A DNA stretch of 64,000 nucleotides from Tepidimonas sp. (GTDB lineage: Bacteria > Pseudomonadota > Gammaproteobacteria > Burkholderiales > Burkholderiaceae_C): positions 472 to 64,471 of the forward strand of contig NZ_JARJMT020000145.1 of assembly GCF_029335975.1 (NCBI RefSeq), given 5' to 3'. Each line of letters starts with the position of its first letter. Position 1 is the stretch's first letter. The notes beneath the pieces are model-generated. The model was not told the origin of the DNA, did not search any database, and was given only the letters and a program-made list of their open reading frames with translations. Below, piece after piece: positions 13,169 to 43,345 of the stretch. Made by a program: the position numbers and the translations under genes.

Positions 13169-13201
13169 GCGATCTTTCTTGCGGCAGGAAACAGCGCATC
13201 A

Positions 13202-26855: not shown

Positions 26856-27466
26856 GCCACCCCACCCTGCCCCCCGGCGTGCGCGTGTTCGAGCGCGGCT
26901 GGCTGTCGGCCAACAAAATCCTCGCCGCCCCGGGCCACGACCCGGACGCGGTGATGCTGTTCGAGCCAGCTTCGCGCACACTCATCTGCGGCGATGCCCT
27001 GTGGGCGCACGGCTTTGGCGTGGTATTTCCCGAGCTGGAGGGAGAACCCGGCTTCGATGCCGTGGCGGCGACGCTGACGCTCATCGAGCGGCTGGCGCCG
27101 CGCGTCGTCATCCCTGGCCACGGCAGTCCCTTTGGGGACGCGGAGTACTGCGGGGCCGGACCCGCCGAACCCGTCGCATCGGCGCTGGCGGTGGCGCGCC
27201 AGCGTCTGCAGAGTTTTGCGGCCGATCCCGCGCGCCACCGCCGGCACGCGCTGAAAGTGTTGCTGAAGTTCAAGCCGCTGCAGTGGCAGCGCCAGCCGCT
27301 GGCGGCGGTGTACGCTTGGGCGCAGCAGGTGCCGCTGTTGCTGCGACTGCATGCGCGTTGTCGCGATGCGCCGCCGTTTGCACAATGGTTGGATGCCGTG
27401 ATCGATGATCTGTGCGCCAATCAAGCGGCCAGACGTGTCGGCGACATGCTGGTGGATGGGACATAA
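26852..27466 (+). pseudogene. MBL-fold metallo-hydrolase with an in-frame internal deletion removing the HxHxDH metal site
   Basis: RGWLSAN is joined directly to AAPGHDP...LICGDALW...VIPGHG; no THxHxDH motif in the 204-aa frame. Confidence 0.7.
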
Positions 27467-27587
27467 AGGCGATTGGCCACGCCGACCCGATGCGGGACCA
27501 TGAACGGCTGCGACCCAAGCGCCGCGGCGTGGCCAGCGCCACTGCCCCCACCCTTTCCGAGCAAGCAGCCCCATCTTTGCCACCCAC

Positions 27588-27742
27588 GACCGGGTGCGCA
27601 TGGGCAGCATCGGCATCTGGTGGCACGCGCATCATGCGTGAGCAGCCGCTCCAAGCGCTTCGCAGGCACGTCAGGGCAACCCGTTTCTTTGAAATTAGCG
27701 CCCCAAGCCCGCCCGATGCGTGCTTTTTCAACGATCTGTTAG
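27588..27742 (+). mobile_element. 3' end fragment of an IS5-like element (left border of the defence island)
   Basis: 155 bp with 5 mismatches to 43169-43323; ends in TIR TTTTTCAACGATCTG followed by TTAG; encodes DRVRMGSIG, like the transposase C-terminus. Confidence 0.75.
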
Positions 27743-27936
27743 AACGTCAAGTGATCAGGGGTTTCCTAACGGATACTCTACCACGCACCATGCGCCGGAT
27801 TGAACCGGATGCGCCCGGCAGTTTCATCCTGCTGTCGATTTCTTCAGCATTTTCTGATAAATCATTAGATTACCTGATCCGCCGATCTGCTCAGCTCAAC
27901 GCACACAATTCCTCTTTACCACCATCTACCAGCGCG

Positions 27937-30672
27937 TCAATTCCATGGTGTGCCCATCAATGTGGCGAGATCCCGGCGCGAGAGTACTGCAGTAAACTCG
28001 CGCCAGTCCTTCTCCGGTGGCATCATCGTGCCCGTGTAACGCAGATCGAAACCTGTCGCTTTCTTCTGGGCATCAATGTACATATCGAGCTTTTCACCTA
28101 AAGACTCGATATCCTCGATCCATTCATCCTTGATGGTATCGGGTAGAGCCCCGAACAAGTCGTAGCGGTTTCGCATACGCTCGGACAGCCGCTCGTAGAT
28201 CTTCTCATCCACGGTCTGCTCGAACACCAGGTTGAGCATGTCAACCGTCTCTCGCCTCTGGCCGAAGCGCTTAATTCGTCCGATGCGCTGTTCCAGCCGT
28301 GTCGGGTTCCAGGGCAGATCCACGTTAATGAGCGTGCCGAGCGTCTGCAGGTTGAGGCCTTCGCATGCGGCATCCGTGGCCACCATGACCCGGATCTGGT
28401 GCTCGGCGACCATCCGCTTCAGGGTCTCGCGCTCCACCGCGACGCTGTCGCCTTGCTGATACAGGCGGCTGCGGCCCGCGCCGGCGTAGAGGCCGATGGC
28501 CTCTTCTGGATACCGGGCGGCCAGCTCATCCGCGAGCCATTTCGCGGTGTCGTAGTACTGGCTGAAGATGATCACGCCGAGATCCAGCCACTTCTCCTTG
28601 TCCAGAAAGTAGATCACGGCCTGCATCTTGGGGTCGACGTCCAGTCGCTGCAGCCTGTCGATGAGGCGCTCCAGCACGTCCCGCTCTTCCTGCGTTTCAA
28701 CGGCCAGGTTGGCCTCGAACTCGTCTCCCTCTTCATGCACAACCTCCCCTTGCAACAGTCGTCGAGCTGTCACGAGTCCGGCTTGGATGCTGGAGCAAAT
28801 GCGCTGCTCCAGCATGTTCTTCATGAACCCACTGCCCTCGCCGCGTTTTGCGAGTGCCTTGCCGAAGGCGCGTGCCTGGCTATAGGCCTCGCGGAAGTCT
28901 TCTGAAGTTCGAAGCGCCTTGCCCTCGAACAGGACGTCGAAGATCCGTGGTTCGGCCACCTTGGAGCGATCCGGGTGAATTTCGACCCCGACCCGTGTGA
29001 GCAGGTTCGCATCTTCCAGCTGCTGTCGTTTGCGAAGCACGACGTGCCTGACCAACGGGTTCTCACGTTGGAACAACGTTGCTCCGGCGATGCGCCGCTC
29101 TAGTTCCTCTTCCAGGATCTCTCGCGTCTCCTCGGCGAGATCGGTCAAGGGGCGATTGGTTTGCCATTCTCCGTTGGTTAGCCCCAAGTCCTGTCGGATA
29201 GCCGACAGCAGTTTACGGGCATGTGGCTCGTTGGTGGACTCGACGCGTGGCAGCGGAGAGCGCAGCAACTCCCAAGCATGGTTGGGGTCCAGTACCTCTT
29301 GCCGACCGGCCAAGATGTCCAGCACTTCATTGGGCCGATGCCAAGCCGCCAGGTCATGTCCCAGGACGAAGCGCCCTAGGCCTTGATGCAGGATACCCAG
29401 CAGGTCCCACAGGTCCCTCGGATCGGTTTGGATGGGGGTGGCTGTACCAAGCAACACATGATCGCCCCGGGCGGCGATTTCGCGCATGAAGGCCAAGAGT
29501 TCGTTCGGCGTTCCGGCGTCCCTGCCGAAGCCCTGGCGCGTGCGCGCCTTGTGGGCTTCGTCCAGGATCACTACGCCGAACCTCAAGCCTAGCAGGTGCT
29601 GCTTCTCCAACGAGTCGCGCATCATAAGGCCCGTGGACACGATGCCGATGCGAAGCGGACAGCGTGCAATCTGCTCGCGACCCGCCGGAGAAATGGCGCG
29701 CTCGTCCGTATCCAGCCACACCTTGCGCACCGTATCCCAGCGTGCGGTCGGGATGCCGAGCTTATCCAGCATCTCGGTCTGCCATTGCTCGGTGAGGGTG
29801 GCCGGCGCAAAGATCACGACCGGGCGTCTTGGCCCGTTGTCACGATCAGAGAGCAAACACAGCGTAAGCGCTGCGGTGGCGAGCGACAGCGTCTTGCCCA
29901 AGCCCACCTCATCGGCCAGCAGCAGCCGCACTACGCCATAGAGCCTGTAGTGGCGCAGGCATTCGGTCAGGAATCCTTGCTGCCACGGCTGTAACTGCTG
30001 CCCCTCGCGGTAGAGCGGGGACTCGATCAGCGCAGCCGGCGCAAGGTTCTCGTCCTCATCGATCTCGTCGAAGACCACTTCGCGGCGCCAGCCACGGCGA
30101 TGAACTTCTCGGATGACCGCCTGCGGCAAGGGCTTCGCCGCTTTCCAAAGGAAGTCGAACTCTTCTTCGATCCAGGCCACCCCCTCGGGGGACTCGTCTT
30201 CCCACAAGATCTCGTAATGACGCTGCCAGCCGCTGCGCGTCTCATTCATTGAGCCGATGAAGCCCAGCCTCCGGCCATCCGCCAAGGTGATCACACCGGC
30301 CTTGCCATGCACGAAACCGCAGACATTGTCGGGCGCTACCCGCACGGCCTGCCCATGCTTCTGCAAAAAGGCATCGAGGCGCCGATAGCGGTCGCGGTGG
30401 AGCAGGACTTCTGCCCCCAGAGCACGCTCATTCCAGCGTCCCAGCATCTTGCTTTCGCGCAACTGGGCGACCTTCAAGTCATCCGGATGGATATCGACGT
30501 TGCAAACGATCTTGACTTCGGGGATGCACTCCAAGATCTCACCAGCCACCTCAAATAATGAACTGGTGAAATAGCCCGCAATGCGCTTGTAGCTGCGAGC
30601 GCCCGCCAAGTGCCTCATTAGGAAGCTGGCATCCAGCCGATGCGTTCTGGAGGAAAAGCGGCGAATGCCCAT
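27937..30672 (-). CDS. PLD-like nuclease fused to SNF2-family helicase (RL/BREX-related defence effector)
   Basis: N-terminal HGKAG...GSMNET (HxK/GSxN); LLADEVGLGKT, DEAH, TDAACEGLNLQ, QRIGRIKR. Confidence 0.9.
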   Translation of the reverse strand: MGIRRFSSRTHRLDASFLMRHLAGARSYKRIAGYFTSSLFEVAGEILECIPEVKIVCNVDIHPDDLKVAQLRESKMLGRWNERALGAEVLLHRDRYRRLDAFLQKHGQAVRVAPDNVCGFVHGKAGVITLADGRRLGFIGSMNETRSGWQRHYEILWEDESPEGVAWIEEEFDFLWKAAKPLPQAVIREVHRRGWRREVVFDEIDEDENLAPAALIESPLYREGQQLQPWQQGFLTECLRHYRLYGVVRLLLADEVGLGKTLSLATAALTLCLLSDRDNGPRRPVVIFAPATLTEQWQTEMLDKLGIPTARWDTVRKVWLDTDERAISPAGREQIARCPLRIGIVSTGLMMRDSLEKQHLLGLRFGVVILDEAHKARTRQGFGRDAGTPNELLAFMREIAARGDHVLLGTATPIQTDPRDLWDLLGILHQGLGRFVLGHDLAAWHRPNEVLDILAGRQEVLDPNHAWELLRSPLPRVESTNEPHARKLLSAIRQDLGLTNGEWQTNRPLTDLAEETREILEEELERRIAGATLFQRENPLVRHVVLRKRQQLEDANLLTRVGVEIHPDRSKVAEPRIFDVLFEGKALRTSEDFREAYSQARAFGKALAKRGEGSGFMKNMLEQRICSSIQAGLVTARRLLQGEVVHEEGDEFEANLAVETQEERDVLERLIDRLQRLDVDPKMQAVIYFLDKEKWLDLGVIIFSQYYDTAKWLADELAARYPEEAIGLYAGAGRSRLYQQGDSVAVERETLKRMVAEHQIRVMVATDAACEGLNLQTLGTLINVDLPWNPTRLEQRIGRIKRFGQRRETVDMLNLVFEQTVDEKIYERLSERMRNRYDLFGALPDTIKDEWIEDIESLGEKLDMYIDAQKKATGFDLRYTGTMMPPEKDWREFTAVLSRRDLATLMGTPWN

Positions 30673-30678
30673 GGTGCA

Positions 30679-32073
30679 TCAATTGCGTGGCTTTACGCCG
30701 CCCTTGCGGCCCAGGCCAAAGCCCACGCGGTATAGGTCCGGCATATCGATCCGACCGTCCTTTTTGGTTTCGATCAGCCCAAGACGCTGCAGATCCTCCC
30801 GGATACCTTTCCAGCCGCGGTCGACATGTTGAGCAGGCAAACGCTCCGAGCGAATCTCCTCGGGCCCCGTCGAAAACTTCTCTTGCCACCGAGTCAAGAC
30901 ATCCTCATAGGTACATGGGACATTCATTCCTTGGAGCGCCGAGAGGACTTCCGGTACCCAGGGATAATCCTCGGCGACTTCGGTCACCCGGATTTCGGAC
31001 GCCTTTTGAATGCCGCGTTTGATACTTTCGTAATGCAGGGCAAACGGATGATCCTGATATCGTACACTGGAATCCTCCGCTGCCTGACGAATGGCCGCAA
31101 GAAACGAGCGCGGTGAAGTCTGACCGCGGCCATCCGCGAGGTGCCCGACCGACCATGTGTAAGGGATGCCGCGGCGCGGATCGCGCCCCATCCATGGTCC
31201 GGCGAGTCGTTCGAACGCCTTGCGTTGTGTTTCGGTTTCGCGTTTCATCTCATCGGCAACCAGCCAAGCGCCTTCGCCTTGTTCTGCCGGACAAATTTTC
31301 CGCATCAAGCTGCCATGATCGCCGCAGGCATTGATCAAGCGCTGCCAAAGCAGTCCATGCAAATCATGTCGCGCCCAATTTAGGTCAGCTTTGGTGGCCA
31401 ACAGCTTGGAAGCATCCGGAAAGTTGAAAACAGTGCGTTCCGCCTGATCTTCCCGCAGAAAAATCTTGCCATGAAGCCCAGGATAAGACTTGAGCCATAG
31501 CAGCGCGCGCAGCAGCCCACGTACGATGTCATCCATGCGCTTCCAGTCATTGCTGGTGCGATCGAGAGAATCGAAAAGAATGAGGCCGCGCCATGTACGT
31601 GGCTGCTGCATCAGGCGCGCCGACTCTTCCGGCCTGTTTTTTAGCCAGGCAACGGTTTCTGGCCAGCTTGCAGACGGAATGGTCTGCTGTGCATGATCTG
31701 CCACCCAGCGCAGCATGACTGCACGCCAAAGATCATAGGGATCTCCACCTTGGGCGATGAAAGCTGAGAAAACATCGGCATTGGGATAGCGGTCGATGGC
31801 CTCCTTGCCCGCAAAGCCCACTTGCACCACGATGTCTTTCAATTCTGGCGCCGCAGAGCCCAGCAGGCTTCGCAACGATTCAGACTGCAACGCGGCGGTC
31901 CAAAAGGATTTGCCCACCCCGCGGCCGCCGATGATCACGTGAGCATCCAGCTTGAGCGCCTTCAGATGTGACAGGGGAACGTAGAGCGTCCGCGCATCCG
32001 GTATCTCGCCGAAGTTGCTGGTTTCCAGGGGTGCCGCCAAGATGGCATCCCGCAACGCTTGAGCTTCAGTCAT
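30679..32073 (-). CDS. P-loop NTPase of STAND-like architecture with no evident effector domain
   Basis: Walker A GGRGVGKS, Walker B LILFDSLD, KIFLRED, C-terminal winged-helix-like LQRLGLI...MPDLYRVGFGL; ATG overlaps the ParA stop by 8 bp. Confidence 0.75.
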   Translation of the reverse strand: MTEAQALRDAILAAPLETSNFGEIPDARTLYVPLSHLKALKLDAHVIIGGRGVGKSFWTAALQSESLRSLLGSAAPELKDIVVQVGFAGKEAIDRYPNADVFSAFIAQGGDPYDLWRAVMLRWVADHAQQTIPSASWPETVAWLKNRPEESARLMQQPRTWRGLILFDSLDRTSNDWKRMDDIVRGLLRALLWLKSYPGLHGKIFLREDQAERTVFNFPDASKLLATKADLNWARHDLHGLLWQRLINACGDHGSLMRKICPAEQGEGAWLVADEMKRETETQRKAFERLAGPWMGRDPRRGIPYTWSVGHLADGRGQTSPRSFLAAIRQAAEDSSVRYQDHPFALHYESIKRGIQKASEIRVTEVAEDYPWVPEVLSALQGMNVPCTYEDVLTRWQEKFSTGPEEIRSERLPAQHVDRGWKGIREDLQRLGLIETKKDGRIDMPDLYRVGFGLGRKGGVKPRN

Positions 32074-33421
32074 GGTTAATCTCTGAATCGAGCAAGCCCC
32101 TAACACCCTCGATCAAGCCCCCGAAGATGGCATTCACTTCTGCGGCATCGATGACGGCAAGTCGCCCCTGCAATGAACGAAGTCCGGCGAAGCTCCTGTG
32201 CCAATGCACCACCCAAGGAGAATGCGGAGCGCCTTCGTCCGCCTCGTCGAAATTCCATCCCTCCACGATTTCCCAGACTCGCCACATCTCACGCTCTCCT
32301 TCCTTCTTCCGTTCAATGGAATCAGGAGGTGGAGGTGCAATTTCGTCATACAGCGAATCAGCAAAAACTTGGTACGCGCCCTCGCGAAGCCCCTTGAGAT
32401 AGTCGATCCGATCAACCTCTGGAACCAGGGCCGCCACGCTTTTGAGGCGTTCACGAATCTGTCGCGCTACCCCAGCACGCCGCCAGTGCTCGAACAGGAT
32501 GCGGTAGCCGTTCCAGGTCTGGCAGCCTTCCAAGGTGAACAGCAGCACCAGGTTTGCGCCCAGATCGGTGACGCAGGCGGACGCCACCTCGTCGATACCC
32601 GCACGCGAATCGATCAACACCACATCGGGACGAATACGCCCCTCCAGCGCCTGCAATAGTCGATGCAATCGGCTGGACCATGACTGTCGTGTCCCGTCCG
32701 CTTGAATCTTGGGCATCCACACCCGCCCCAACTTGGCCACATATTCACCGGGATCGGCGCCATGCGCCGGCGCCACATAGATTTCGCCATCATAGGCGAG
32801 GTCACTGGTGGCGATCATGCTTTCAAACACCGTATCGGCGTTTTCCACCAGATCCTCCACCAGCCAGTCGGTTATGCCGTACTTGGGCTGCCGTTCGGGT
32901 GGCAACAGGCTGGAAGACAGGCCGGGGGATTCCAAATCTAGGTCCAGCACCAGCACACGCTTGCCCGCTTGTGCCAGCCGCCACGCGCAGGCGGCCAGCG
33001 CCGTGGAACGACCGACGCCACCTTTGATCGAAAAAAACACGATGCGACGCGGTCCTTGGGTTTCTGGAGCAATTTCCGCCCAGTTGCCTTCGGTCGCCAG
33101 GCGGTCGATCAGCCAGACATTGGTGAAATCTTCCAGCCGAAAACCCGTGGCGCCAGAGCAAGCAGCCTCGCGGCTCACTTCGAACAATAGGCCGGATTCG
33201 GGCGGATACGCATGCGGAGCAATGCGCTCGGCAAGCTCCCGATAAATCCTCTCGACCTGCCGCCGCGGCTCTTCCTGGCGCTCGACGGGTTCAGGCGCGA
33301 TGAAGCGCGCACGCCCGTTGAGGTCGCGATTGACGACGAGCCAATCGATCTGCTCAAGCGCATCACGGTGTGCGTTCAACACCCCCACCGTTGCGGTGAG
33401 AATTTCATCGAACGTCGTCAT
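32066..33421 (-). CDS. ParA/MinD-like ATPase with KGGVGR variant Walker A
   Basis: FFSIKGGVGRST, VLVLDLDLESPG, VVLIDSRAG; ~120-aa N-terminal extension; ATGA overlap with the HEPN-like gene. Confidence 0.85.
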   Translation of the reverse strand: MTTFDEILTATVGVLNAHRDALEQIDWLVVNRDLNGRARFIAPEPVERQEEPRRQVERIYRELAERIAPHAYPPESGLLFEVSREAACSGATGFRLEDFTNVWLIDRLATEGNWAEIAPETQGPRRIVFFSIKGGVGRSTALAACAWRLAQAGKRVLVLDLDLESPGLSSSLLPPERQPKYGITDWLVEDLVENADTVFESMIATSDLAYDGEIYVAPAHGADPGEYVAKLGRVWMPKIQADGTRQSWSSRLHRLLQALEGRIRPDVVLIDSRAGIDEVASACVTDLGANLVLLFTLEGCQTWNGYRILFEHWRRAGVARQIRERLKSVAALVPEVDRIDYLKGLREGAYQVFADSLYDEIAPPPPDSIERKKEGEREMWRVWEIVEGWNFDEADEGAPHSPWVVHWHRSFAGLRSLQGRLAVIDAAEVNAIFGGLIEGVRGLLDSEINHD

Positions 33422-33834
33422 AGCAATCCGTCCTTTTGCGCCTTTTTGATCAGTGCGCGGACAACGCTTGCGCCAGACTGGTGCGCCTGCGTGCGCGCCT
33501 GATCAAAGTTGGACTGATGGGCATAGCGCTGCGCCACGTCCCAGTCACTGAAGGGATTGGGCGTTGACAGTGCATACGCCGCGCCTTGATGATGACCGCA
33601 GCGATAGCTTTCATAGCGGTCCCAGATTTTGTTGGCATGCACTTGGTCTCGGCCCTCGGCTGGGCGGTCGCGTGTCGAGTCATACGGCATACCGAAGGCC
33701 AGCATCAGTCGCTTCAAACCGCACTCGGCCGCCACACCATACAGATGATCGGCATTTGCCCAGCGTCCTGTCTGGAACAAGCCCTCCGCATCGGTCCAAT
33801 GCCGCTCATGCGCATCCAGGAAATCTGCTTGCAT
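33418..33834 (-). CDS. Small HEPN-like protein (138 aa)
   Basis: A..L....R...A.HLYGVAAECGLK helix, conserved-looking H (QVH), W...RY (WDVAQRY); GAGGA SD before ATG 33834. Confidence 0.6.
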   Translation of the reverse strand: MQADFLDAHERHWTDAEGLFQTGRWANADHLYGVAAECGLKRLMLAFGMPYDSTRDRPAEGRDQVHANKIWDRYESYRCGHHQGAAYALSTPNPFSDWDVAQRYAHQSNFDQARTQAHQSGASVVRALIKKAQKDGLL

Positions 33835-33844
33835 GTCGTCTTCC

Positions 33845-36802: not shown

Positions 36803-36815
36803 GGCAAGGTGATCT

Positions 36816-37865
36816 TCAAGCGGTCACTGCCTGCACCCAGCCTTGGGCGGCCAATCTGTCGGCGGCGATGGCGATCTGCCGGAGCGTGAACTGGCGCTTG
36901 CGCGGGTTCCAGGCGTGAATGCGCTTGGCTACCTCGTCGAGCTGACTCACCCCCTCGCGCGACAAGACCCAATGCACGGTCGAGAGCAACTCAAGACCGT
37001 ATGGTGACTCGAAGCCTTCGACGAGACGGGTGACGCGCTCGAGGCGTTCGCGGCTGTCGGCATGTTGGTCGAGGAAGGCGGACGCCTCCTGGATGGCGCC
37101 GGGAACCAGCGTCAGAGGCTTGTCCGGCGCATCGCCGCCGTCGGCGTAACCGGCGATCAGGTGCCCCTCGACCGTGCGCAGCACGTGGCGCAGGTTTTCC
37201 GCGTAAGGGCCATAGGGTGCCTTGACGTACTTCAGGCGCAGCGGCTCCCCAGCCTCCTGCATGAAGTACATCAGCTTGTGGATCTCCAGCAAGGTCACGA
37301 AGGGGTCGAGCAAGCCGCTGAGATAACGGTGGATCAATTCAACCAAGGCCGCACGACCGGCAGTCATGGTTGGCACTTCACGCACATGGGCCATCTTGTC
37401 AGGGGTGGGCGCACCAAAGGGCTCGAACACGAGCACGTACACGTCCTCCAGTTGCTCCAGCGCTCGCTCGATGCGTGGGCGTACGTCGTTCCACTCCAAG
37501 CCTCCCAGGCCGCTGCCCAGCGGTGGGATGGCGATGGACCGGATGCCCTTCTCGCGAATGACCCGGGCCAGATCGACCAAGCCTGCTTCGATGTCCTCGA
37601 TGCGGCTCTTACCGCGCCAATGGCGCTTGGTTGGGAAGTTGATGATGAAGCGCGGCGGCGTGAGCTGCCCCGTCTCGAAGACAAACATGCGGCCGGGTTG
37701 CACGGCCTCGCGCTTGCAGGCAGCCTCGTAAGCCTTGAAATTCTCAGGGAATGCGTTCTTGAACTGCAAGGCGATCCCGCGCCCCATCACGCCGACGCAG
37801 TTGACGGTGTTGACCAGCGCGTCCGCTTCACACTTGAGGATGTCGCCCGAGGTAAACTCGATCAT
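36816..37865 (-). CDS. darG: DarG antitoxin: macrodomain ADP-ribosyl glycohydrolase plus C-terminal domain
   Basis: GDIL...ADALVNTVNCVGVMGRGIALQFK, IINFPTKRHWR, SIAIPPLGSGLGGLEW; directly downstream of darT. Confidence 0.9.
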   Translation of the reverse strand: MIEFTSGDILKCEADALVNTVNCVGVMGRGIALQFKNAFPENFKAYEAACKREAVQPGRMFVFETGQLTPPRFIINFPTKRHWRGKSRIEDIEAGLVDLARVIREKGIRSIAIPPLGSGLGGLEWNDVRPRIERALEQLEDVYVLVFEPFGAPTPDKMAHVREVPTMTAGRAALVELIHRYLSGLLDPFVTLLEIHKLMYFMQEAGEPLRLKYVKAPYGPYAENLRHVLRTVEGHLIAGYADGGDAPDKPLTLVPGAIQEASAFLDQHADSRERLERVTRLVEGFESPYGLELLSTVHWVLSREGVSQLDEVAKRIHAWNPRKRQFTLRQIAIAADRLAAQGWVQAVTA

Positions 37866-37885
37866 GGCTGTGCCCCTCTCATTTC

Positions 37886-38536
37886 TCAGTAATACCAATC
37901 CGGGCGGATTTCGACCGTAGGTCGGTGTCCGTTTACCGGAAGGGCGTTCACAACCTGCTGGTAGATCGTGCGATTGAGTACGCCAACGCGCTGGATCAGG
38001 TGCCAGGGAAAGCTGTGCTCCAGCAGAAACTCGGCTTGCTTGCCTTCCTTGCACTGCCGCCAATCTCGCGCTTGAACAGCCACCCAGTCGATTTCGTCGA
38101 GGCGTGCCAAATCGCAACGGTCCTCGAAGAAGTACGAACCAGCGTTCGAGAGGGTGAAGGCCCACCGCCTCTGTTGGGCTTGTGCCCAAGCAACGGTGGC
38201 ATGCAGATCGGCTTCGAAATGCAGGATCGGGGCCTGTCCACCGCGGTAGCCAAGCTCCGGATGATTGCCCTGGTGGATCAGGTACAACATCACCGAGCGC
38301 GGGCAGAAGTAGAACGGCACGCAGTCGCCCACGTGCAGGTCGGGATGGCTGCTGAGGCGCAGTTCGTTCAAGCGCCGCTGCTTGATGCCATTCATGCCAA
38401 TGATAGTGCCCGGCGGCATGCGTCGCACGATCTCCGCATCGCACCAAAGAAAACCGTCCGCCACGATGGAGGGTAGACGATCTACGTGGGCAATGTGGTA
38501 GATCTTTGGCTGCGGGGGTACGAGGCCGTTGGTCAT
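37886..38536 (-). CDS. darT: DarT DNA ADP-ribosyltransferase toxin (DUF4433)
   Basis: IYHIAHVDRLPSI, CVPFYFCPRSVMLY, FTLSNA, KQAEFLL (catalytic Glu); ATG overlaps the DUF3780 stop. Confidence 0.9.
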   Translation of the reverse strand: MTNGLVPPQPKIYHIAHVDRLPSIVADGFLWCDAEIVRRMPPGTIIGMNGIKQRRLNELRLSSHPDLHVGDCVPFYFCPRSVMLYLIHQGNHPELGYRGGQAPILHFEADLHATVAWAQAQQRRWAFTLSNAGSYFFEDRCDLARLDEIDWVAVQARDWRQCKEGKQAEFLLEHSFPWHLIQRVGVLNRTIYQQVVNALPVNGHRPTVEIRPDWYY

Positions 38537-39168
38537 GCCGTGTCGTCCCCGAACAGATCCAGCGATGGCCGGGTGTCGTCGCGGTCGTTTTGGCTGCGGC
38601 GGCCGCGGGTGCACAGCAACTCGCTCTGCGCGACATCACCCAAGGCATGCTGAAGCGCGATGCGCCACCCCTTGCCGGCGTCCATGACGCCGCCTGTCGC
38701 CATGGCGGTCATGCCAAACAGCCACCAGCGCTCCTCGGGCCGAAGCGCCAGCCAGTTCCTTACGGCGACGGGGATCTTGGATGCCTCCAGCTGCTCGACG
38801 GCCCAGGCCAGGACGCAGAGTTCCTTGCCGAGCAGGCGATCCACAGGGTTCTCGCCGATCTTCCATGCACTGGGCTTCAGCGCATGCGCGGTGAGGCGTG
38901 CGTTGAAGGCCCGCTGCACCTCAGCACGGATGGCCGTCCAGCGCGGCCGGTCGAGCAAGACGCGGTCGATCACCGCGGTATCGCTTGATGCCGATTGCAG
39001 GCCGAGGTACTCGCTGATCTGAACCTTGCCCGTGCTGCTCTTGGGGATGAGCACCTTGAAGTGATGCGGGTCTGAGGTCGCGGGCACCCCGAAGCCCAGC
39101 GTATGCTGGACATGCGCACGCCCTGCTAGCGTCCGGGTTGCGCGGCGCAAGGCTTGCGTCATGGTCAT
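38533..39168 (-). CDS. DUF3780-like protein of the RL defence system
   Basis: GFG...HHF.V.IP, VDRLLGKELCVLAWAVE, NWLALRPEERWWLF; coupled to the DUF499 gene. Confidence 0.82.
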   Translation of the reverse strand: MTMTQALRRATRTLAGRAHVQHTLGFGVPATSDPHHFKVLIPKSSTGKVQISEYLGLQSASSDTAVIDRVLLDRPRWTAIRAEVQRAFNARLTAHALKPSAWKIGENPVDRLLGKELCVLAWAVEQLEASKIPVAVRNWLALRPEERWWLFGMTAMATGGVMDAGKGWRIALQHALGDVAQSELLCTRGRRSQNDRDDTRPSLDLFGDDTA

Positions 39169-42100
39169 TCCTCCTGGCTCACGTCGCCCGGCTTGAGCTC
39201 GACACCAGCAATCTTCGCGAACTCCTTGAGCGCAAAGCCCGTGTCGAACTGAATGCCTTCAGCGATGGCGATGTTAACCATGGCTTCGGGCTCACCCAGA
39301 ACGTCGCGAAGGCTGTTGACGACGCCTTCGATCATGGCGGCCGTGACCTCGCGCTCTTGGAAGCGCACGGTCACGGTGTTTTCGCCCTCGCCGATCTCGA
39401 TGCGAACGCCCTTGAAACGAGTGCCCGGCTGATCGCGGAAGCGATTGATGACCCCGAACACACGGTCGGTAGTGTCCAGAGACACGCGCTTGCTCTGCAG
39501 GCGGGCCGGCTTGGCATCGACGATCTGGACCGTCTTATCGCCGCTGGCCTGGATCTGGAAGTCGGCCGTCTTGTTGGCTTCGCCTGCTCGTGCAAACACC
39601 AGCAGGCGAAAGCTGCCTACGCCGATTTCGAAGGGGCCGTCGTACCGCGTACCGTCCTTAGGGTTGGACCCGTCCAAGGTGTAGTAGAGCTCTGCCCGCG
39701 GGGTGGCCTCCAGGCGCACACGGCGCTTATCGGCAGCCGGTTCGACTTGGTGACGGATCTTCAGATCGGCCAGCCAGCGCACGGGCGGGGCGCTTTCGTG
39801 CTGCCCGGTGGTGTCCTTCACCCAGAAGTAGAGTGTTCCTTGCGTCGTCGTGAAGTTGTCGAGGTCATCGACCTTCTGGTCCTTGTCCGTAACCTCGGGC
39901 TTGGTCGACCAATAGACCACTGGGCTGTCACCCGCATGGCGGGGCGTCAGACTCAACACCGTCTCTCCCGAGTCGGCCTTGATGTTGACGACGGACACGT
40001 TGACAGTGGCCTTGTCCTTGGGGAAGGGGCCCTTCTCGATGTAGCCGTCTTCACCCAGACGCCAGCGTCCTTGCTTCAACGCCTCCGTCTTGAGGGTATC
40101 CAGACCGCTCGCGCCCGGCATCCAGGGCCAGATGGGCGAGCACTTGGCGCGCATGACGACGTCCTTCCAGGGCGTGCGGCGGTTGTCCTTGCCCGATGGC
40201 CAGAGGTACTCTTCGGCCATCGCAAAGTACTCGTCCAGGTTGCCCTTGGTGAGTTCCCGTACGAGCTTGTAATCCGCCCTGGGGCTTGCGAGCAGACTCT
40301 CGATCTGCGCTTCGGCGGATTGATCTCCTTGGCCGATCTTCAGTCCTTGGTCGATGGTGACGCCGGCCAGGACGTCGCGACCATCGACCGGGTCGTTCAC
40401 TGGGAAATAGAGGCGGTTATAGGCCGCCGACAGGGCCTTGCCGAAGCGGTCTTCCGCTTCTTCCAGTCGGTCGCGTGCTTCTTCGAACAGCGTGTCACCA
40501 GGGCGAAGCCGCTTGTGGATCTGCTCGATGGCGTAGAGCTCACGCAAACGCTCCTCGACAGCGTCCGCCAACAGGCTATCCTGACCCGTGAGCACCAGCA
40601 GGTTGTTTTTCTCCTGCTGATAGTCAAAGAAGTTCTGGAGTTCGCTCGGCGGAACCTTGCCATCGGGCTTGATGACGATGAGCGTCCGCGGGCCGGAGAG
40701 CTTCAATTCGTCGAGCTTGGGCAGGACCTGAACATCCTGGTATGCAATCTTGCGGACCGGTTCAAGGATGCCGGTGAGCCGATTGATCAGCGCCTGATCG
40801 ACCTTGGGCTGAGGAACCTCCTTCGCGTTGCGCTCGATCTGGCGCGAGAGGTTTTCGGTTTCCTTGATGAAGAAGCGTCGCTCCTCGCGGTGCAGGTACC
40901 AGGCGGCCTCCCGCAGCCGCTGCATCGCCTGAAGGAACTCGTCTGGCTTGCGCTGCGGTGCGGCCAGGAACTCGATGAGTTCGCTCTCGGAAAGGCCGAT
41001 CCGCCCCCCGACCGCGCGGGACAGGCTAGAGGCCAGCAGCAGGGTCATCACCTGTCGCGCGGCATCAGAACCCAGCTCGTCGTCGATGTGTTCGGCAATT
41101 GCGTTACCGTTGTCGGCGATGTCCCGCGTGACGGCTGGCATCAGCTTCGGCGCGATGCGTTCGATCTCGTCTTTGACTTGGTCATCGTTGAGGTTGAGAT
41201 GCTGCGTGCCGATCAGGAAGACATCATCCGTATCGCGCTCCTCGACGCTCTTGAGGAGTCGGGCGGTAAATTGCATCAGGCCGCGGGTTTGGCGGAACCC
41301 TTCGTTTTCCTTGAACAGCGCGACAAGGTGCTTGAACGAGGGGTGGAAGGGGTAGGTCTCGCGCACCTGCTCGGCAATCTGCTCGATGCTGCTGGCAACG
41401 ATGTAGCCGCCGTCTTCGGCCTTCTTGATCTGCTGGGCGTATTCTTCGGCCACATCCGAAATGACGCGCTCGTCGGGCAGCTCGTCGATGAGCCGCTTCT
41501 TCAGGATCTCGTAGATCTCGTTGCCGGCCAGTTGCACCGGTGTGATGGTCATGGCTTGGCGGCGCGTCTCCTGCTGAAGATTGGAGATTGCGTCGGAAAG
41601 GGCCTTCGTCTGCGCCTTGTAACTACCCGCAAGGTTCGCAACGACAATGGCGCAGTTGGGCAACTCCAGCGCCGCGCTCATCAGGCTAGAGAGGCTGTAG
41701 ACCACCATATTGGCCAGTGTGCCCTGACCAAACACCTGTGTGCTGGCGTTGTCGAGATAGGGTGGCAGCTCATCCAGCAGGATCAACGTCGGCTCACTGC
41801 CTATGATTTCCTTCCACTTGCGTTGATCGACGGCCTTGGGGCCGTTGGCCCAGTAGGGCTTGATGGCATCCTCGGCGCCAAGCTGGCTTGCGATCTCACC
41901 CCAGATGTAGTTATCCGGGTTGTTGCGACCGTTGAAGGCAGCGATGCGTGCCGTGTCAAAGTCCACACGGGCAGCGAGATCAGGGGGGAGGACATCGGAA
42001 CGCAGGTGCGGGTGACGCGCTAGCAGGCCGAGCGCGATCATCATGTGCGTTTTACCGCCACCCATGGCCTGGGTGAGCTCGAAGACCGCCTGATCTGACT

Positions 42101-42290
42101 TGCCCGACAAGCGCAGCAGCCCCTCGCGGAACAGTTGCTCCATGCCGTGCGTGACGAAGTTGCGTGAGAAGAACTCCCGCCCGTCTCCCTCGTCATTGAT
42201 GAGTTCTGCCAGATTCTCGATGCCTTGGCTCATCCGGTAGTCTCGGATGATCGAATTGAACCGGCAGGCCTGCTTGACCGTCTTGATCAT
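39165..42290 (-). CDS. DUF499-family AAA+ ATPase (1041 aa) with C-terminal Fn3/Ig-like domains
   Basis: LTQAMGGGKTH, ILLDELPPY, YPFHP, FRQTRGL; YYTLDGSNP near the C-terminus; start MIKTVK overlaps the RHH stop. Confidence 0.88.
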   Translation of the reverse strand: MIKTVKQACRFNSIIRDYRMSQGIENLAELINDEGDGREFFSRNFVTHGMEQLFREGLLRLSGKSDQAVFELTQAMGGGKTHMMIALGLLARHPHLRSDVLPPDLAARVDFDTARIAAFNGRNNPDNYIWGEIASQLGAEDAIKPYWANGPKAVDQRKWKEIIGSEPTLILLDELPPYLDNASTQVFGQGTLANMVVYSLSSLMSAALELPNCAIVVANLAGSYKAQTKALSDAISNLQQETRRQAMTITPVQLAGNEIYEILKKRLIDELPDERVISDVAEEYAQQIKKAEDGGYIVASSIEQIAEQVRETYPFHPSFKHLVALFKENEGFRQTRGLMQFTARLLKSVEERDTDDVFLIGTQHLNLNDDQVKDEIERIAPKLMPAVTRDIADNGNAIAEHIDDELGSDAARQVMTLLLASSLSRAVGGRIGLSESELIEFLAAPQRKPDEFLQAMQRLREAAWYLHREERRFFIKETENLSRQIERNAKEVPQPKVDQALINRLTGILEPVRKIAYQDVQVLPKLDELKLSGPRTLIVIKPDGKVPPSELQNFFDYQQEKNNLLVLTGQDSLLADAVEERLRELYAIEQIHKRLRPGDTLFEEARDRLEEAEDRFGKALSAAYNRLYFPVNDPVDGRDVLAGVTIDQGLKIGQGDQSAEAQIESLLASPRADYKLVRELTKGNLDEYFAMAEEYLWPSGKDNRRTPWKDVVMRAKCSPIWPWMPGASGLDTLKTEALKQGRWRLGEDGYIEKGPFPKDKATVNVSVVNIKADSGETVLSLTPRHAGDSPVVYWSTKPEVTDKDQKVDDLDNFTTTQGTLYFWVKDTTGQHESAPPVRWLADLKIRHQVEPAADKRRVRLEATPRAELYYTLDGSNPKDGTRYDGPFEIGVGSFRLLVFARAGEANKTADFQIQASGDKTVQIVDAKPARLQSKRVSLDTTDRVFGVINRFRDQPGTRFKGVRIEIGEGENTVTVRFQEREVTAAMIEGVVNSLRDVLGEPEAMVNIAIAEGIQFDTGFALKEFAKIAGVELKPGDVSQEE

Positions 42291-42484
42291 GAGCGCACTT
42301 CGCTGTTGTTCTCGGCTTCGTCGGAGGGCGGAATCTCGATCCCGCATTGCTCGCAATAGTCGCGAATCAGGACCTCGACCATGTTGGCGATCGACCGATG
42401 TTCGAGATTTGCCGCGAGGCGCAGCGCCTCCTTGAGAGCGGGATCGATCCGAAAGGTCAGGGTAGCGGTTTTGCGTGCGACCAT
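42287..42484 (-). CDS. Ribbon-helix-helix (CopG/Arc-like) small regulator, first gene of the defence operon
   Basis: MVARKTATLTFRIDPALKEALRLAANLEHRSIANMVEVLIRDYC; alternating beta-strand then two helices; GGAGAGG SD. Confidence 0.8.
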   Translation of the reverse strand: MVARKTATLTFRIDPALKEALRLAANLEHRSIANMVEVLIRDYCEQCGIEIPPSDEAENNSEVRS

Positions 42485-42500
42485 AGCCTCTCCGGAAGCC

Positions 42501-42526
42501 ACTGCAAATGTACTGCACTTTACAGT
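42501..42526. promoter_or_regulatory. Putative RHH operator/promoter of the defence operon
   Basis: ACTGCA at 42501 and 42512 (11-bp spacing) plus inverted TACAGT at 42521, in an AT-richer patch 17-42 bp upstream of the RHH ATG. Confidence 0.45.
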
Positions 42527-42827
42527 ATCGCAGCGGCGCCAACAATGTGGAGTAGCCGGGCCCCTGTGCGCGTTGTCCGCCAGGACGACCCCACGCCGGC
42601 CGAGCGCGCGGGGCAGTTGGCGGCGGTCGTTGGGAGAGATGGGCGTCATGGCGGCTGGTCGTCGGCGTGTGCGCGTATGAACGCGCTTTTTCGCCGAACA
42701 GCCAAGCTGGCAGGTAGGCAGTCCTGGTAAGCGCGCGCCGCGGTGGCACGACGTGCGATGCTCCAAGATACCGCGTGCACGAACCCGCTCACTTGAGCTG
42801 GATTCCTAGGGTTCCCGTAGTCGTTTA

Positions 42828-43320
42828 ACAGGCCGTTGAAAAATCCCGTGCGAGCGCCCGACTCGGCCGCTACGATCTGACGCCATCTGCAAACGCCCCA
42901 GTCGAAGACGATGCGAGGCAAGCAAAACTTCCAACGGGGCGATGTTCAGCGACATCGGCCTAGCAGAGCGAGTGCCGCAGGCCCATCCGCTGCTTTATCC
43001 GCAGCGAGCGCCATGCGGGCGGCAAGACCAGCCTCTAAGCGCGCAAGCGCATCAAGCACATCGAAGGGGCCTTTGGCAGGATCAAGACCGTGGGCGGTTA
43101 AGGCCAAGACCCCACTGATCGGCCAGGCCAAGCTCGCGGGCCAAGCGCTGCTGTGCTTTGCCAACTAAGACCGGGTGCGCATGGGCAGCATCGGCATCTG
43201 GTGGCACGCGCATCATGCGTGAGCAGCCGCTCCAAGCGCTTCGCAGGCATGTCAGGGCAACCCGTTTCTTCGGAATCAGCGCCCCAAGCCCGCCCGATGC
43301 GTGCTTTTTCAACGGTCTGT
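42828..43320 (+). mobile_element. Internally deleted, non-autonomous IS5-like element (~490 bp)
   Basis: TIRs ACAGGCCGTTGAAAAA / TTTTTCAACGGTCTGT flanked by TA; transposase N-terminus (MRGKQNFQ..MFSDIGLAERVPQAHPL) joined to C-terminus (RKRI..EGAFGRIKTVGG..LIGQAKLAGQALLCFA); frameshifts and stops. Confidence 0.82.
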
Positions 43321-43345
43321 TAGGCCACCCCCACTGCGCAGCACC

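What the first reader, a model, noticed from the sequence alone, without database searches (positions are those of the whole stretch)
27937..42484. 14.5-kb single operon: restriction-like (DUF499-DUF3780-DUF1156-PLD/SNF2) system acting as a scaffold for nested defence cargo
Seen: ten consecutive minus-strand ORFs with overlaps or gaps of 20 bp or less, from the RHH gene to the helicase, with no internal promoter-sized gap. Established (from memory): DUF499 ATPase, DUF3780, DUF1156 methylase and PLD-SNF2 helicase form the four-gene 'restriction-like' anti-phage system (Gao_RL, BREX-related). Here its core order is preserved but split at two junctions, by darTG and by the HEPN-like/ParA/STAND triad. 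Inference: the intergenic junctions of this system are variable slots for back-up abortive modules, like the cargo slots of type I R-M, BREX and Septu/Gabija loci. Mining these slots across genomes could yield new systems.
Basis: partly seen in the sequence, partly recalled or inferred. Interest (0 to 1): 0.75.

Follow-up and report, generated by a model that had tools for sequence, protein, structure and literature searches.

The report
MANTIS defence operon with nested cargo
This is a real ten-gene bacterial anti-phage operon: a known restriction-like system (MANTIS, formerly Gao_RL) carrying two other immunity modules inserted between its genes, which is a clear but already published pattern and not a new kind of system.

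Summary
Ten minus-strand genes (27937-42484) are joined by 4-8 nt overlaps or gaps of 6-20 nt, and every domain call is confirmed.

The core is MtsR(RHH)-MtsA(DUF499)-MtsB(DUF3780)-MtsC(DUF1156 methylase)-MtsD(PLD-SNF2). This is MANTIS, also called Gao_RL or the Type-2 BREX-related system, whose mechanism was described in a 2026 preprint. An intact DarT/DarG pair sits between mtsB and mtsC. The three-gene PADLOC candidate PDC-M28 sits between mtsC and mtsD.

In 160 related loci the two junctions are truly variable:
- mtsB|mtsC: 53 of 134 empty, 53 with darTG, 6 with darTG remnants, about 18 with at least six other cargo types, 4 short unclassified.
- mtsC|mtsD: 84 of 100 empty, 12 with PDC-M28, 4 with AIPR/AbiU.
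- The other two junctions almost never hold cargo.

Scaffolds 98% identical to this one exist with and without PDC-M28. PDC-M28 also occurs free-standing elsewhere.

It is not new. "Guilt-by-embedding" (Payne 2024) and the 2026 BREX survey already describe it. A single transcript is plausible (conserved promoter/operator only upstream of mtsR) but unproven. Interest is moderate to low.

The parts
42501..42545 (-). Conserved promoter/operator-like region upstream of mtsR. It contains TTGTTG (42545-42540), a 17-nt spacer and TAAAGT (42522-42517). It also contains the repeats ACTGTA (42526-42521), TGCAGT (42517-42512) and TGCAGT (42506-42501). A GGAGAGG Shine-Dalgarno sequence follows at 42493-42487.
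   Evidence: The same block (TTGnnn-17-TAnAnT followed by GCAGTACATTTGCAGT) is conserved upstream of the RHH gene in essentially all related loci examined. Similarity between loci starts at about the -35 element. Function as a promoter and MtsR operator is inferred.
42287..42484 (-). mtsR: 65-aa ribbon-helix-helix (Arc/CopG-like) putative repressor, first gene of the operon.
   Evidence: PF01402 RHH_1 scores 20.7 bits against a cut-off of 20.5. A homologue lies upstream of DUF499 in 95 of 117 loci with enough upstream sequence. The MANTIS preprint names MtsR, an Arc/CopG-related putative repressor.
39165..42290 (-). mtsA: DUF499 AAA+ ATPase (1041 aa). It has a Walker A motif (GGGKTH) and a Walker B motif (LILLDELP).
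   Evidence: NF042962 scores 1538.7 bits (cut-off 1200). PDLC02192 scores 1458 bits. Motifs were read from the translation.
38533..39168 (-). mtsB: DUF3780 protein (211 aa).
   Evidence: PF12635 E = 1.6e-74. NF042961 scores 281.8 bits, cut-off 200.
37886..38536 (-). darT: ssDNA ADP-ribosyltransferase toxin (216 aa). Cargo 1 in slot 1.
   Evidence: PF14487 E = 1.1e-63. NF048013 scores 250.7 bits, cut-off 150.
36816..37865 (-). darG: macrodomain antitoxin (349 aa). Cargo 1 in slot 1.
   Evidence: NF048014 scores 485 bits, cut-off 250. PDLC02990 scores 468.7 bits.
33845..36802 (-). mtsC: DUF1156 N6-adenine methyltransferase (985 aa). It has an FxGxG motif (FCGGGS) and a DPPY motif.
   Evidence: NF042963 scores 1395.6 bits, cut-off 1000. 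PDLC02189 scores 1406 bits. Motifs were read from the translation.
33418..33834 (-). PDC-M28A: 138-aa helical protein with a weakly HEPN-like fold. Cargo 2 in slot 2.
   Evidence: PDLC04558 E = 3.2e-57, full length. The AlphaFold model has pLDDT 88. The top seven Foldseek hits are HEPN proteins, with TM 0.45-0.6 and E 0.08-0.6. No Pfam or NCBIfam hit.
32066..33421 (-). PDC-M28B: 451-aa ParA/MinD-like ATPase with a KGGVGR deviant Walker A. Cargo 2.
   Evidence: PDLC04559 scores 600.6 bits. NF047398 AAA_KGGVGR scores 203 bits, cut-off 90.
30679..32073 (-). PDC-M28C: 464-aa P-loop NTPase (GGRGVGKS). Cargo 2.
   Evidence: PDLC04561 scores 676.9 bits. NF047389 (Sll1717 family) scores 68.2 bits, just below its cut-off of 75. 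The best fold match is an ORC/Cdc6-type AAA+ chain (9gjw_A), E = 4e-3, TM 0.33.
27937..30672 (-). mtsD: PLD(HKD)-SNF2 helicase-nuclease effector (911 aa). It has a DEVGLGKT motif and a DEAH box.
   Evidence: NF042964 scores 1203.9 bits, cut-off 1100. PDLC02193 scores 1375 bits. Pfam finds PLDc_2, SNF2-rel_dom and Helicase_C.
27575..27742 (+). Left flank: solo 3' end of an IS5-family element (168 nt).
   Evidence: It is 95% identical to 43156-43323. Further copies occur in the same genome. The full-length relative encodes a DUF772+DDE_Tnp_1 transposase.
42826..43323 (+). Right flank: internally deleted IS5-family element. It has an inverted terminal copy at 42826-42848, a transposase C-terminal fragment at about 43000-43098 (part of ORF 42911-43168), and its 3' end at 43156-43323.

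Best explanation
The block is one horizontally mobile MANTIS operon (mtsR-mtsA-mtsB-mtsC-mtsD, also called Gao_RL or the Type-2 DUF499-centred BREX-related system). It carries two independent, co-oriented defence cassettes seamlessly inserted at the two junctions that flank the methyltransferase gene.

MANTIS layer (taken from the 2026 preprint, not tested here):
- MtsA (AAA+ ATPase) and MtsB load MtsC, which hemimethylates adenines in an asymmetric 6-bp site to mark self DNA.
- Recognition of unmodified sites, best as inverted pairs, triggers the dimeric PLD-helicase MtsD to cut foreign DNA.

Cargo 1, DarTG (macrodomain type): on infection DarT ADP-ribosylates single-stranded DNA and stops replication. 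This is an abortive back-up.

Cargo 2, PDC-M28: a small HEPN-like helical protein, a KGGVGR ParA-like ATPase and a Cdc6/Sll1717-like P-loop NTPase. It is an untested three-gene module that also exists on its own in other genomes. It is inferred to be an NTPase-controlled abortive system.

Expression is most likely from the single conserved MtsR-controlled promoter upstream of mtsR (inferred).

Cargo is gained, lost and swapped independently of the scaffold. The likely route is homologous recombination through the highly conserved flanking mts genes, because the junctions carry no repeats or recombinase genes (inferred).

The whole unit entered this genome between an MBL-fold gene and argC, and is bracketed by IS5-family remnants.
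For: **Identity of all ten genes.**; the core, DarT and DarG all exceed NCBIfam equivalog cut-offs.

**Tight junctions.**

**Variable slots in 160 loci**.
- mtsB|mtsC, n = 134: 53 empty, 53 darTG, 6 remnants, about 18 other cargo, 4 short unclassified.
- mtsC|mtsD, n = 100: 84 empty, 12 PDC-M28, 4 AIPR/AbiU.
- Other junctions: 0 of 95 and 1 of 153.

**Cargo annotation.**

**Independence of cargo from scaffold.**
- MtsA is 98% identical to the window's in L009 (PDC-M28 present) and in L008, L010 and L011 (slot empty).
- At least 9 and 7 state changes occur on a 69-tip MtsA tree.
- PDC-M28B of L009 is only 68% identical to the window's although the scaffold is 94-98% identical.
- Decayed darTG occurs in situ in 6 loci.

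**PDC-M28 as an autonomous cassette.** It is free-standing, in the same A-B-C order, in Aeromonas (beside an integrase), Achromobacter and Allochromatium. It is embedded with other slot-1 cargo in Methylococcus.

**Junction structure.** Junctions are seamless with no repeats.

**Promoter.** A conserved promoter/operator lies upstream of mtsR only.

**Insertion into this genome.**
- Four same-genus genomes show the empty site, with the MBL gene and argC about 57 bp apart.
- The island has lower GC (0.58-0.65) than the flanks (about 0.66-0.70).
- IS5-family remnants lie at both ends.

**Published background.**
- MANTIS mechanism and MtsR: bioRxiv 10.64898/2026.09.23.753747.
- Embedding concept: bioRxiv 10.1101/2024.01.29.577857.
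- Back-up effectors in BR loci: PMC12839542.
- DarTG2 inside a Type I R-M island with a small repressor as first gene: PMC12255303.
Against: - No direct evidence exists for one transcript. Contigs from two metatranscriptome libraries cross the junctions, but they come from 85-93%-identical relatives, carry no strand information, and run on at least 255 nt beyond the promoter and the helicase stop. They may be DNA carry-over.
- Promoters inside coding sequence cannot be excluded.
- No activity was tested for any protein here. The methylation motif is unknown.
- PDC-M28 has never been shown to defend. No paper in the library names it.
- The HEPN assignment of M28A rests on non-significant Foldseek E-values, and no canonical Rx4-6H motif is visible.
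- Both locus samples are the 80 best matches to a query. The percentages are therefore not an unbiased census, and related loci are not independent events.
Confidence: 0.85

Rival explanations
1. The cassettes are functionally wired to MANTIS and are not merely co-resident. Because DarTG and PDC-M28 lack promoters of their own, their expression and toxin/antitoxin balance depend on the MtsR promoter. Phage shut-off or anti-restriction attack on MANTIS would then specifically release the abortive layers, making an obligate layered system.
For: - Cargo starts overlap or abut scaffold stops.
- A conserved promoter lies only upstream of mtsR.
- Cargo is always co-oriented with the scaffold and confined to the two junctions around mtsC.
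- A filled slot 2 goes with a filled slot 1: 15 of 16, Fisher p = 0.004, not corrected for phylogeny.
- There is a precedent of DarTG2 within a repressor-controlled Type I R-M island.
Against: - 38 of the 100 loci in which both slots could be scored have both slots empty, and MANTIS works as four genes.
- PDC-M28 and DarTG exist free-standing.
- Cargo types are very heterogeneous.
- Nothing here tests synergy.
Confidence: 0.2
2. The inserts are mainly selfish addiction modules or hitch-hikers. Toxin-antitoxin cassettes landed in permissive intergenic sites of a frequently transferred operon and persist because they stabilise it, with little or no contribution to phage defence.
For: - Much slot-1 cargo is classical TA (darTG, MazF, MazE-PIN, PIN).
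- A TnpB element also sits in the slot in L176.
- The unit is clearly mobile across orders and phyla.
- darTG decays in situ in 6 loci.
Against: - DarTG, Ppl and AbiU-type proteins are established or catalogued defence genes (PMC12255303).
- Payne et al. confirmed defence for seven embedded candidates.
- Only 3.1% of Hma-embedded genes were mobility genes.
- Addiction and defence are not mutually exclusive.
Confidence: 0.15
3. The ten genes are not one transcription unit. Internal promoters within mtsB, mtsC or the cargo genes drive darTG, PDC-M28 or mtsD separately.
For: - Free-standing PDC-M28 cassettes must have their own promoters.
- A 14.5-kb polycistronic mRNA is long.
- One promoter-like site lies inside mtsD on the minus strand.
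Against: - No intergenic space exceeds 20 nt.
- Promoter-like sites are not enriched over shuffles: 4 found against 2.9 expected.
- The only conserved promoter-like block is upstream of mtsR.
- RNA-library contigs are continuous over the junctions, which is weak evidence.
Confidence: 0.15
4. DarTG and the triad are integral, co-evolved subunits of a distinct ten-gene MANTIS subtype and are not exchangeable cargo.
For: The same darTG + PDC-M28 architecture recurs in L009, L022, L087, L141 and L142, and in an 18.6-kb contig of run X25.
Against: - Near-identical scaffolds lack PDC-M28.
- PDC-M28 combines with at least five different slot-1 states.
- PDC-M28 sequences diverge far more than the scaffolds that carry them.
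- PDC-M28 is free-standing elsewhere.
Confidence: 0.03

Closest known systems
MANTIS (= Gao_RL / Gao_29 = Type-2 DUF499-centred BREX-related system). Sources: Shaw et al., bioRxiv 10.64898/2026.09.23.753747; Rakesh & Krishnan, NAR 2026, PMC12839542.
   Same: - The same five genes occur in the same order and orientation: MtsR (Arc/CopG-like), MtsA (DUF499), MtsB (DUF3780), MtsC (DUF1156 MTase), MtsD (PLD-SF2).
- All four core proteins pass NCBI's anti-phage equivalog models.
- The catalytic motifs are present.
   Different: - Two foreign cassettes (5 genes, 4.9 kb) interrupt mtsB|mtsC and mtsC|mtsD.
- The MANTIS preprint's text does not discuss embedded genes.
- The recognition site and activity of this copy are unknown.
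Defence systems embedded in Hma, BREX, DISARM and Type I R-M ('guilt-by-embedding'; Payne, Hughes, Fineran & Jackson, bioRxiv 10.1101/2024.01.29.577857).
   Same: - Co-oriented defence cassettes are nested between the genes of a methylation-based scaffold.
- Scaffolds exist with and without them.
- The cargo also occurs outside scaffolds.
- PDC-M28 is one of their 145 candidates.
   Different: - MANTIS was not one of the four scaffolds they mined.
- Here the cargo is confined to the two junctions flanking the methylase, and both are occupied at once.
RptR-Type I R-M-DarTG2 island of enteropathogenic E. coli (NAR 2025, PMC12255303).
   Same: DarTG of the macrodomain type lies between restriction-system genes. 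A small repressor gene comes first and acts on a repeat-bearing promoter. The authors propose the site as a recombination hotspot.
   Different: - The scaffold differs (Type I HsdMSR against MANTIS).
- The regulator differs (alpha-helical RptR against the ribbon-helix-helix MtsR).
- Regulation is shown there and only inferred here.
PADLOC candidate PDC-M28 (A, B, C).
   Same: All three proteins give full-length matches to the three models, in A-B-C order.
   Different: Nothing differs. It is a member, but the candidate itself has no experimental support or published mechanism.

Membership tests
MANTIS / Gao_RL / Type-2 BR system | MtsA: DUF499 AAA+ ATPase | tested here: met
   NF042962 scores 1538.7 bits (cut-off 1200), full length. 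PF04465 hit. Walker A and B motifs are present.
MANTIS / Gao_RL / Type-2 BR system | MtsB: stand-alone DUF3780 gene directly after mtsA | tested here: met
   PF12635 E = 1.6e-74. NF042961 scores 281.8 bits, cut-off 200. The junction with mtsA is a 4-nt overlap.
MANTIS / Gao_RL / Type-2 BR system | MtsC: DUF1156 N6-adenine methyltransferase | tested here: met
   NF042963 scores 1395.6 bits, cut-off 1000. DPPY and FxGxG motifs are present in the translation.
MANTIS / Gao_RL / Type-2 BR system | MtsD: N-terminal HKD/PLD nuclease fused to an SF2/SNF2 motor | tested here: met
   NF042964 scores 1203.9 bits, cut-off 1100. PLDc_2, SNF2-rel_dom and Helicase_C hits.
MANTIS / Gao_RL / Type-2 BR system | Hemimethylation of an asymmetric 6-bp site, and restriction of unmodified DNA needing MtsABCD | not testable with these tools
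   This needs a methylome and phage or plasmid assays. The property is taken from the preprint.
MANTIS / Gao_RL / Type-2 BR system | Optional MtsR, an Arc/CopG-like repressor, upstream | tested here: met
   RHH_1 scores 20.7 bits against a cut-off of 20.5, which is marginal. A homologue is present in 95 of 117 loci. An operator-like promoter is conserved. The preprint names MtsR. DNA binding was not tested.
DarTG toxin-antitoxin (macrodomain DarG type) | DarT ADP-ribosyltransferase followed by a macrodomain DarG, both full length | tested here: met
   NF048013 scores 250.7 bits (cut-off 150) and NF048014 scores 485 bits (cut-off 250). Macro domain E = 6.3e-27. The two genes are 20 nt apart. 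Enzymatic activity was not tested.
PDC-M28 (PADLOC phage-defence candidate) | Three adjacent co-oriented genes matching models M28A, M28B and M28C | tested here: met
   E = 3.2e-57, 4.9e-181 and 3.9e-204, each over the full profile length.
PDC-M28 (PADLOC phage-defence candidate) | Anti-phage activity | not testable with these tools
   No paper in the library names it. It is a prediction from embedding only.
HEPN superfamily (for M28A) | Four-helix up-down HEPN fold | tested here: inconclusive
   The model has pLDDT 88. The seven best PDB matches are all HEPN proteins, but with E 0.08-0.6 and TM 0.45-0.6.
HEPN superfamily (for M28A) | Conserved Rx4-6H RNase motif | tested here: not met
   In the alignment of 35 homologues, the invariant residues include R11, H12, R103, Y104 and H118, but no R-x(4-6)-H pair. 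The nearest is QRYAH, whose H is not invariant.
STAND NTPases (for M28C) | NB-ARC/NACHT-type P-loop with helical and winged-helix modules plus sensor repeats | tested here: inconclusive
   No Pfam hit. The Sll1717-family P-loop model scores 68.2 bits, below its cut-off of 75. The best fold match is an ORC/Cdc6-type AAA+ chain at TM 0.33. A P-loop NTPase is certain; STAND is not shown.
Embedded defence cargo (Payne et al. 2024 sense) | Cargo lies between scaffold genes on the same strand, scaffolds occur with and without it, and cargo also occurs outside the scaffold | tested here: met

The most novel reading that the evidence does not exclude
The two junctions flanking mtsC may be selected docking positions of a layered immune operon. 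Promoter-less abortive modules placed there (DarTG, PDC-M28, AbiU-type, SLFN, and an uncatalogued TIGR04255 + small protein + PIN cassette) would be expressed only through the MtsR-controlled promoter. They would then fire specifically when phages shut down or inhibit MANTIS.

Within this reading, PDC-M28 (HEPN-like protein + KGGVGR ParA-like ATPase + Cdc6-like NTPase) would be a genuinely new NTPase-gated abortive system. The TIGR04255 cassette would be a further undiscovered one.
Probability: 0.2. Interest if true: 0.6.

Novelty: new member of a known kind. Interest (0 to 1): 0.3.

Why it matters
This is a tidy natural example of three immune layers packed into one mobile, probably co-regulated operon: methylation-based restriction, DNA ADP-ribosylation, and an untested NTPase module.

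It adds MANTIS to the scaffolds in which defence genes are nested, and gives numbers for where and how often:
- Cargo sits only at the two junctions around the methylase.
- About 60% of mtsB|mtsC junctions and 16% of mtsC|mtsD junctions are occupied in the sample.

It also points to two cheap experimental targets:
- PDC-M28.
- A recurrent TIGR04255 + small protein + PIN cassette that is absent from PADLOC.

It does not change the current picture of bacterial immunity.

Tried and rejected
1. **Site-specific island with att duplication.** The 168-nt direct repeats flanking the block looked like att sites. They are copies of the 3' end of an IS5-family element found elsewhere in the genome. There is no tRNA gene in the window and no large ORF other than the ten genes inside the block.

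2. **Slot 2 is binary (empty or PDC-M28).** This held for the 80 genome loci. The metagenome set overturned it: four loci carry an AIPR/AbiU gene there.

3. **RNA evidence for one transcript.** No run holds the window itself. Two metatranscriptome runs hold relatives whose contigs cross the junctions. The contigs have no direction and extend past the promoter and the terminal stop, so the evidence is inconclusive.

4. **Sequence search of PDB with PDC-M28A and M28C profiles.** Nothing meaningful was found.

5. **Canonical HEPN RNase motif in M28A.** Not found.

6. **Repeats or recombination sites at cargo junctions.** None; the junctions are seamless.

7. **Promoter and terminator consensus scans inside the block.** No more sites than in shuffles.

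8. **Other islands at the same chromosomal site.** Some congeners have other DNA between the MBL gene and argC, but I did not annotate it.

Full report
**1. Observation.**

Between 27937 and 42484 the minus strand carries ten consecutive ORFs. With the start codons that fit the family profiles, the junctions are as follows:
- mtsR|mtsA, mtsA|mtsB, mtsB|darT and M28A|M28B: ATGA-type 4-nt overlaps.
- M28B|M28C: 8-nt overlap.
- darT|darG: 20-nt gap.
- darG|mtsC: 13-nt gap.
- mtsC|M28A: 10-nt gap.
- M28C|mtsD: 6-nt gap.

Consensus promoter-like and terminator-like sites inside the block are no more frequent than in shuffled sequence. The block has lower GC (0.58-0.65) than its surroundings (about 0.66-0.70).

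**2. Gene identities.**

Pfam, PADLOC and NCBIfam agree.

| Coordinates | Gene | Key evidence |
|---|---|---|
| 42287-42484 | 65-aa ribbon-helix-helix protein | Marginal Pfam score |
| 39165-42290 | DUF499 AAA+ ATPase | NF042962, 1538.7 bits, cut-off 1200 |
| 38533-39168 | DUF3780 | NF042961, 281.8 bits, cut-off 200 |
| 37886-38536 | DarT | 250.7 bits, cut-off 150 |
| 36816-37865 | Macrodomain DarG | 485 bits, cut-off 250 |
| 33845-36802 | DUF1156 methyltransferase with DPPY | 1395.6 bits, cut-off 1000 |
| 33418-33834 | PDC-M28A | Full-length PADLOC match |
| 32066-33421 | PDC-M28B | Full-length PADLOC match |
| 30679-32073 | PDC-M28C | Full-length PADLOC match |
| 27937-30672 | PLD-SNF2 helicase | NF042964, 1203.9 bits, cut-off 1100 |

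- M28B is a KGGVGR-motif ParA/MinD-like ATPase (NF047398, 203 bits, cut-off 90).
- M28C is a P-loop NTPase that just misses the Sll1717-family cut-off (68.2 against 75).

**3. What the core is.**

The four-gene core was 'Gao_RL'. It is classed as the Type-2 DUF499-centred BREX-related system (PMC12839542). It was renamed MANTIS in a September 2026 preprint, which gives it a mechanism:
- MtsA and MtsB load MtsC, which hemimethylates an asymmetric 6-bp site.
- MtsD, a dimeric PLD-helicase, restricts unmodified DNA, best at inverted site pairs.

The preprint also notes that some operons encode MtsR, an Arc/CopG-like putative repressor. That is the RHH gene here.

I found an MtsR homologue upstream of mtsA in 95 of 117 related loci. 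Directly upstream of it lies a block conserved across the family: TTGnnn, 17 nt, TAnAnT, overlapping ACTGTA...TGCAGTACATTTGCAGT, then GGAGAGG and ATG. In the window this is at 42501-42545.

Similarity between loci begins at about the -35 element. The mobile unit therefore starts with its own promoter. That this is the MtsR operator is inferred.

**4. Are the junctions variable slots?**

I collected two sets of loci:
- 80 loci from species-representative genomes, using DUF3780 as anchor (385 of 185,579 genomes matched the seed peptides).
- 80 loci from metagenome contigs, ranked on a divergent DUF3780.

I mapped the window's ten proteins and the recurring cargo proteins onto them.

*Junction mtsB|mtsC (134 scorable).*
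- 53 empty (gap of 120 nt or less).
- 53 with intact darTG.
- 6 with darTG remnants.
- About 18 with other cargo: SLFN/AlbA_2-HATPase_c_4 proteins, Ppl/TrlF plus SLFN, MazE-PIN, MazF-like toxin pairs, a TIGR04255 + ~110-aa + PIN cassette, and in one case a TnpB element.
- 4 short and unclassified.

*Junction mtsC|mtsD (100 scorable).*
- 84 empty.
- 12 with PDC-M28.
- 4 with an AIPR/AbiU-type gene.

*Other junctions.*
- mtsR|mtsA: never more than 75 nt (0 of 95).
- mtsA|mtsB: 1 of 153 in the tally, plus L014 (1365 nt).

All cargo is co-oriented with the scaffold. The exact darTG + PDC-M28 combination recurs in L009, L022, L087, L141 and L142. It also recurs in an 18.6-kb contig of run X25.

**5. 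Independence of cargo and scaffold.**

- On a tree of 69 MtsA sequences the window groups with L008-L011 at 98% identity. These loci come from Thermomonas, a Rhodanobacteraceae MAG, Macondimonas and Caldimonas, which span different orders. Of them only L009 carries PDC-M28.
- At least 9 (slot 1) and 7 (slot 2) state changes are needed on that tree.
- L009's PDC-M28B is only 68% identical to the window's, while MtsA and MtsD are 98% and 94% identical. The two cassettes were therefore not inherited together with the scaffold.
- The closest PDC-M28C relatives (84-86%) sit in MANTIS operons with other slot-1 cargo.
- More distant ones (73-77%) are free-standing A-B-C cassettes among housekeeping genes. 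They occur in Aeromonas (next to an integrase and AlpA), Achromobacter and Allochromatium.
- Filled and empty junctions differ by a clean replacement of the 10-20-nt spacer, with no repeats.
- Together with the high conservation of the flanking mts genes, this points to exchange by homologous recombination (inferred).

**6. PDC-M28 proteins.**

- M28A model: pLDDT 88. Its seven best PDB matches are all HEPN-domain proteins. However, E-values are 0.08-0.6 and TM-scores are 0.45-0.6.
- The alignment shows no Rx4-6H motif. 'HEPN-like' is a weak fold resemblance, not a membership.
- M28C model: pLDDT 79.5. It resembles ORC/Cdc6 AAA+ proteins only distantly (E = 4e-3, TM 0.33).
- Profile searches of PDB sequences gave nothing.
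- No paper in the library mentions PDC-M28.

**7. Transcription.**

No sequencing run holds this exact sequence. Two metatranscriptome libraries hold relatives.
- Hot-spring run X34: contigs of a 91-93%-identical relative cross mtsA|mtsB, mtsB|darT|darG, darG|mtsC and an empty mtsC|mtsD junction. The joint is 30672 to 33855, with the same spacer as L008-L011.
- Bioreactor run X25: one 18.6-kb contig covers 28024-42530 with both cassettes.
- Contigs have no strand, and they continue at least 255 nt past both ends of the operon. DNA carry-over cannot be excluded.

A single transcript remains the most economical reading but is unproven.

**8. How the block got here.**

- In four same-genus genomes the MBL-fold gene (window 26852-27466) and argC (43346-44266) are about 57 bp apart. 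The block is therefore an insertion. Other congeners have different DNA at that site.
- The block is bracketed by remnants of one IS5-family element in direct orientation. One is a solo 3' end at 27575-27742. The other is an internally deleted copy at 42826-43323.
- A full-length relative of that element encodes a DUF772+DDE_Tnp_1 transposase.

**9. Comparison with what is known, and verdict.**

- Nesting of defence systems between genes of Hma, BREX, DISARM and Type I R-M systems, and its use for discovery, was published by Payne et al..
- The 2026 BREX survey reports HEPN, PIN and Schlafen 'backup effectors' inside BREX-related loci, Type-2 included.
- DarTG2 inside a repressor-controlled Type I R-M island has been characterised.
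- Neither the MANTIS preprint nor these papers mention DarTG or PDC-M28 inside MANTIS in their main text. This locus and the slot statistics are a modest addition.
- Earlier notes of this scan on other genomes reached the same reading.

The novelty is that of a new, well-documented member of a known kind.

Noticed in passing
window 27575-27742 and 42826-43323: The defence block is bracketed by two remnants of the same IS5-family element (DUF772+DDE_Tnp_1 transposase) in direct orientation. Further copies of the 168-nt end lie on four other contigs of this genome. This may be a decayed composite transposon, or a substrate for deleting the island.
   Followed up: partly
window 27467-43345; loci L097, L099, L100, L102, L105, L106: The MBL-fold gene|argC intergenic site is empty (about 57 bp) in four same-genus genomes. 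It holds about 7.4 kb and about 1.9 kb of unrelated DNA in two others, so it may be a recurrent insertion hotspot in this genus. The other contents were not annotated.
   Followed up: partly
L031:11272-12747, L155:10598-12070, L186:1124-2605; also L044, L073, L122, L176, L180: A recurrent three-gene cassette occupies the mtsB|mtsC slot in about eight loci. It comprises a TIGR04255-family protein (~247 aa), a ~110-aa protein with no family, and a PIN-domain protein (~140 aa). It has no PADLOC model, so it is a candidate uncatalogued defence or toxin-antitoxin module.
   Followed up: partly
L133:15281-16972, L107, L135, L137: The mtsC|mtsD slot can hold a single AIPR/AbiU-type abortive-infection gene (PF10592, E = 1.3e-51) instead of PDC-M28.
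   Followed up: yes
window 36340-36491 (N-terminal part of mtsC); L010 12665-14131: Two parts of mtsC are mosaic between otherwise 93-98%-identical operons. In the window, 36340-36491 (near the N-terminus) is replaced by 219-231 unrelated letters in both RNA-library contigs. In L010, the central 12665-14131 aligns to its near-identical relatives only in patches of 79-97%. The central block may correspond to specificity-domain (TRD) swapping as described for MANTIS.
   Followed up: no
L010 and L011 (whole 20.6-kb loci): A Macondimonas MAG (Gammaproteobacteria) and Caldimonas caldifontis (Burkholderiales) share about 97% nucleotide identity over the whole 20.6 kb fetched, well beyond the MANTIS operon. 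This indicates recent transfer of a larger element between orders.
   Followed up: no
L176:8474-9781: An IS200/IS605-type TnpB gene sits inside the mtsB|mtsC slot next to a truncated MazF-like gene. Mobile elements therefore also land in this slot.
   Followed up: partly
L127:12610-14294 and L064:11317-12997: In two loci with an empty slot 1, a DarT/DarG pair lies immediately downstream of mtsD instead. It is divergent and on the same strand in L127, and on the opposite strand in L064.
   Followed up: no
window 33418-33834 and homologues P0263, P0274, P0311, P0331: Several public records name PDC-M28A homologues 'SAM-dependent methyltransferase'. The protein is a 138-aa all-helical, HEPN-like bundle with no methyltransferase fold, so that name is probably an annotation error.
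   Followed up: partly
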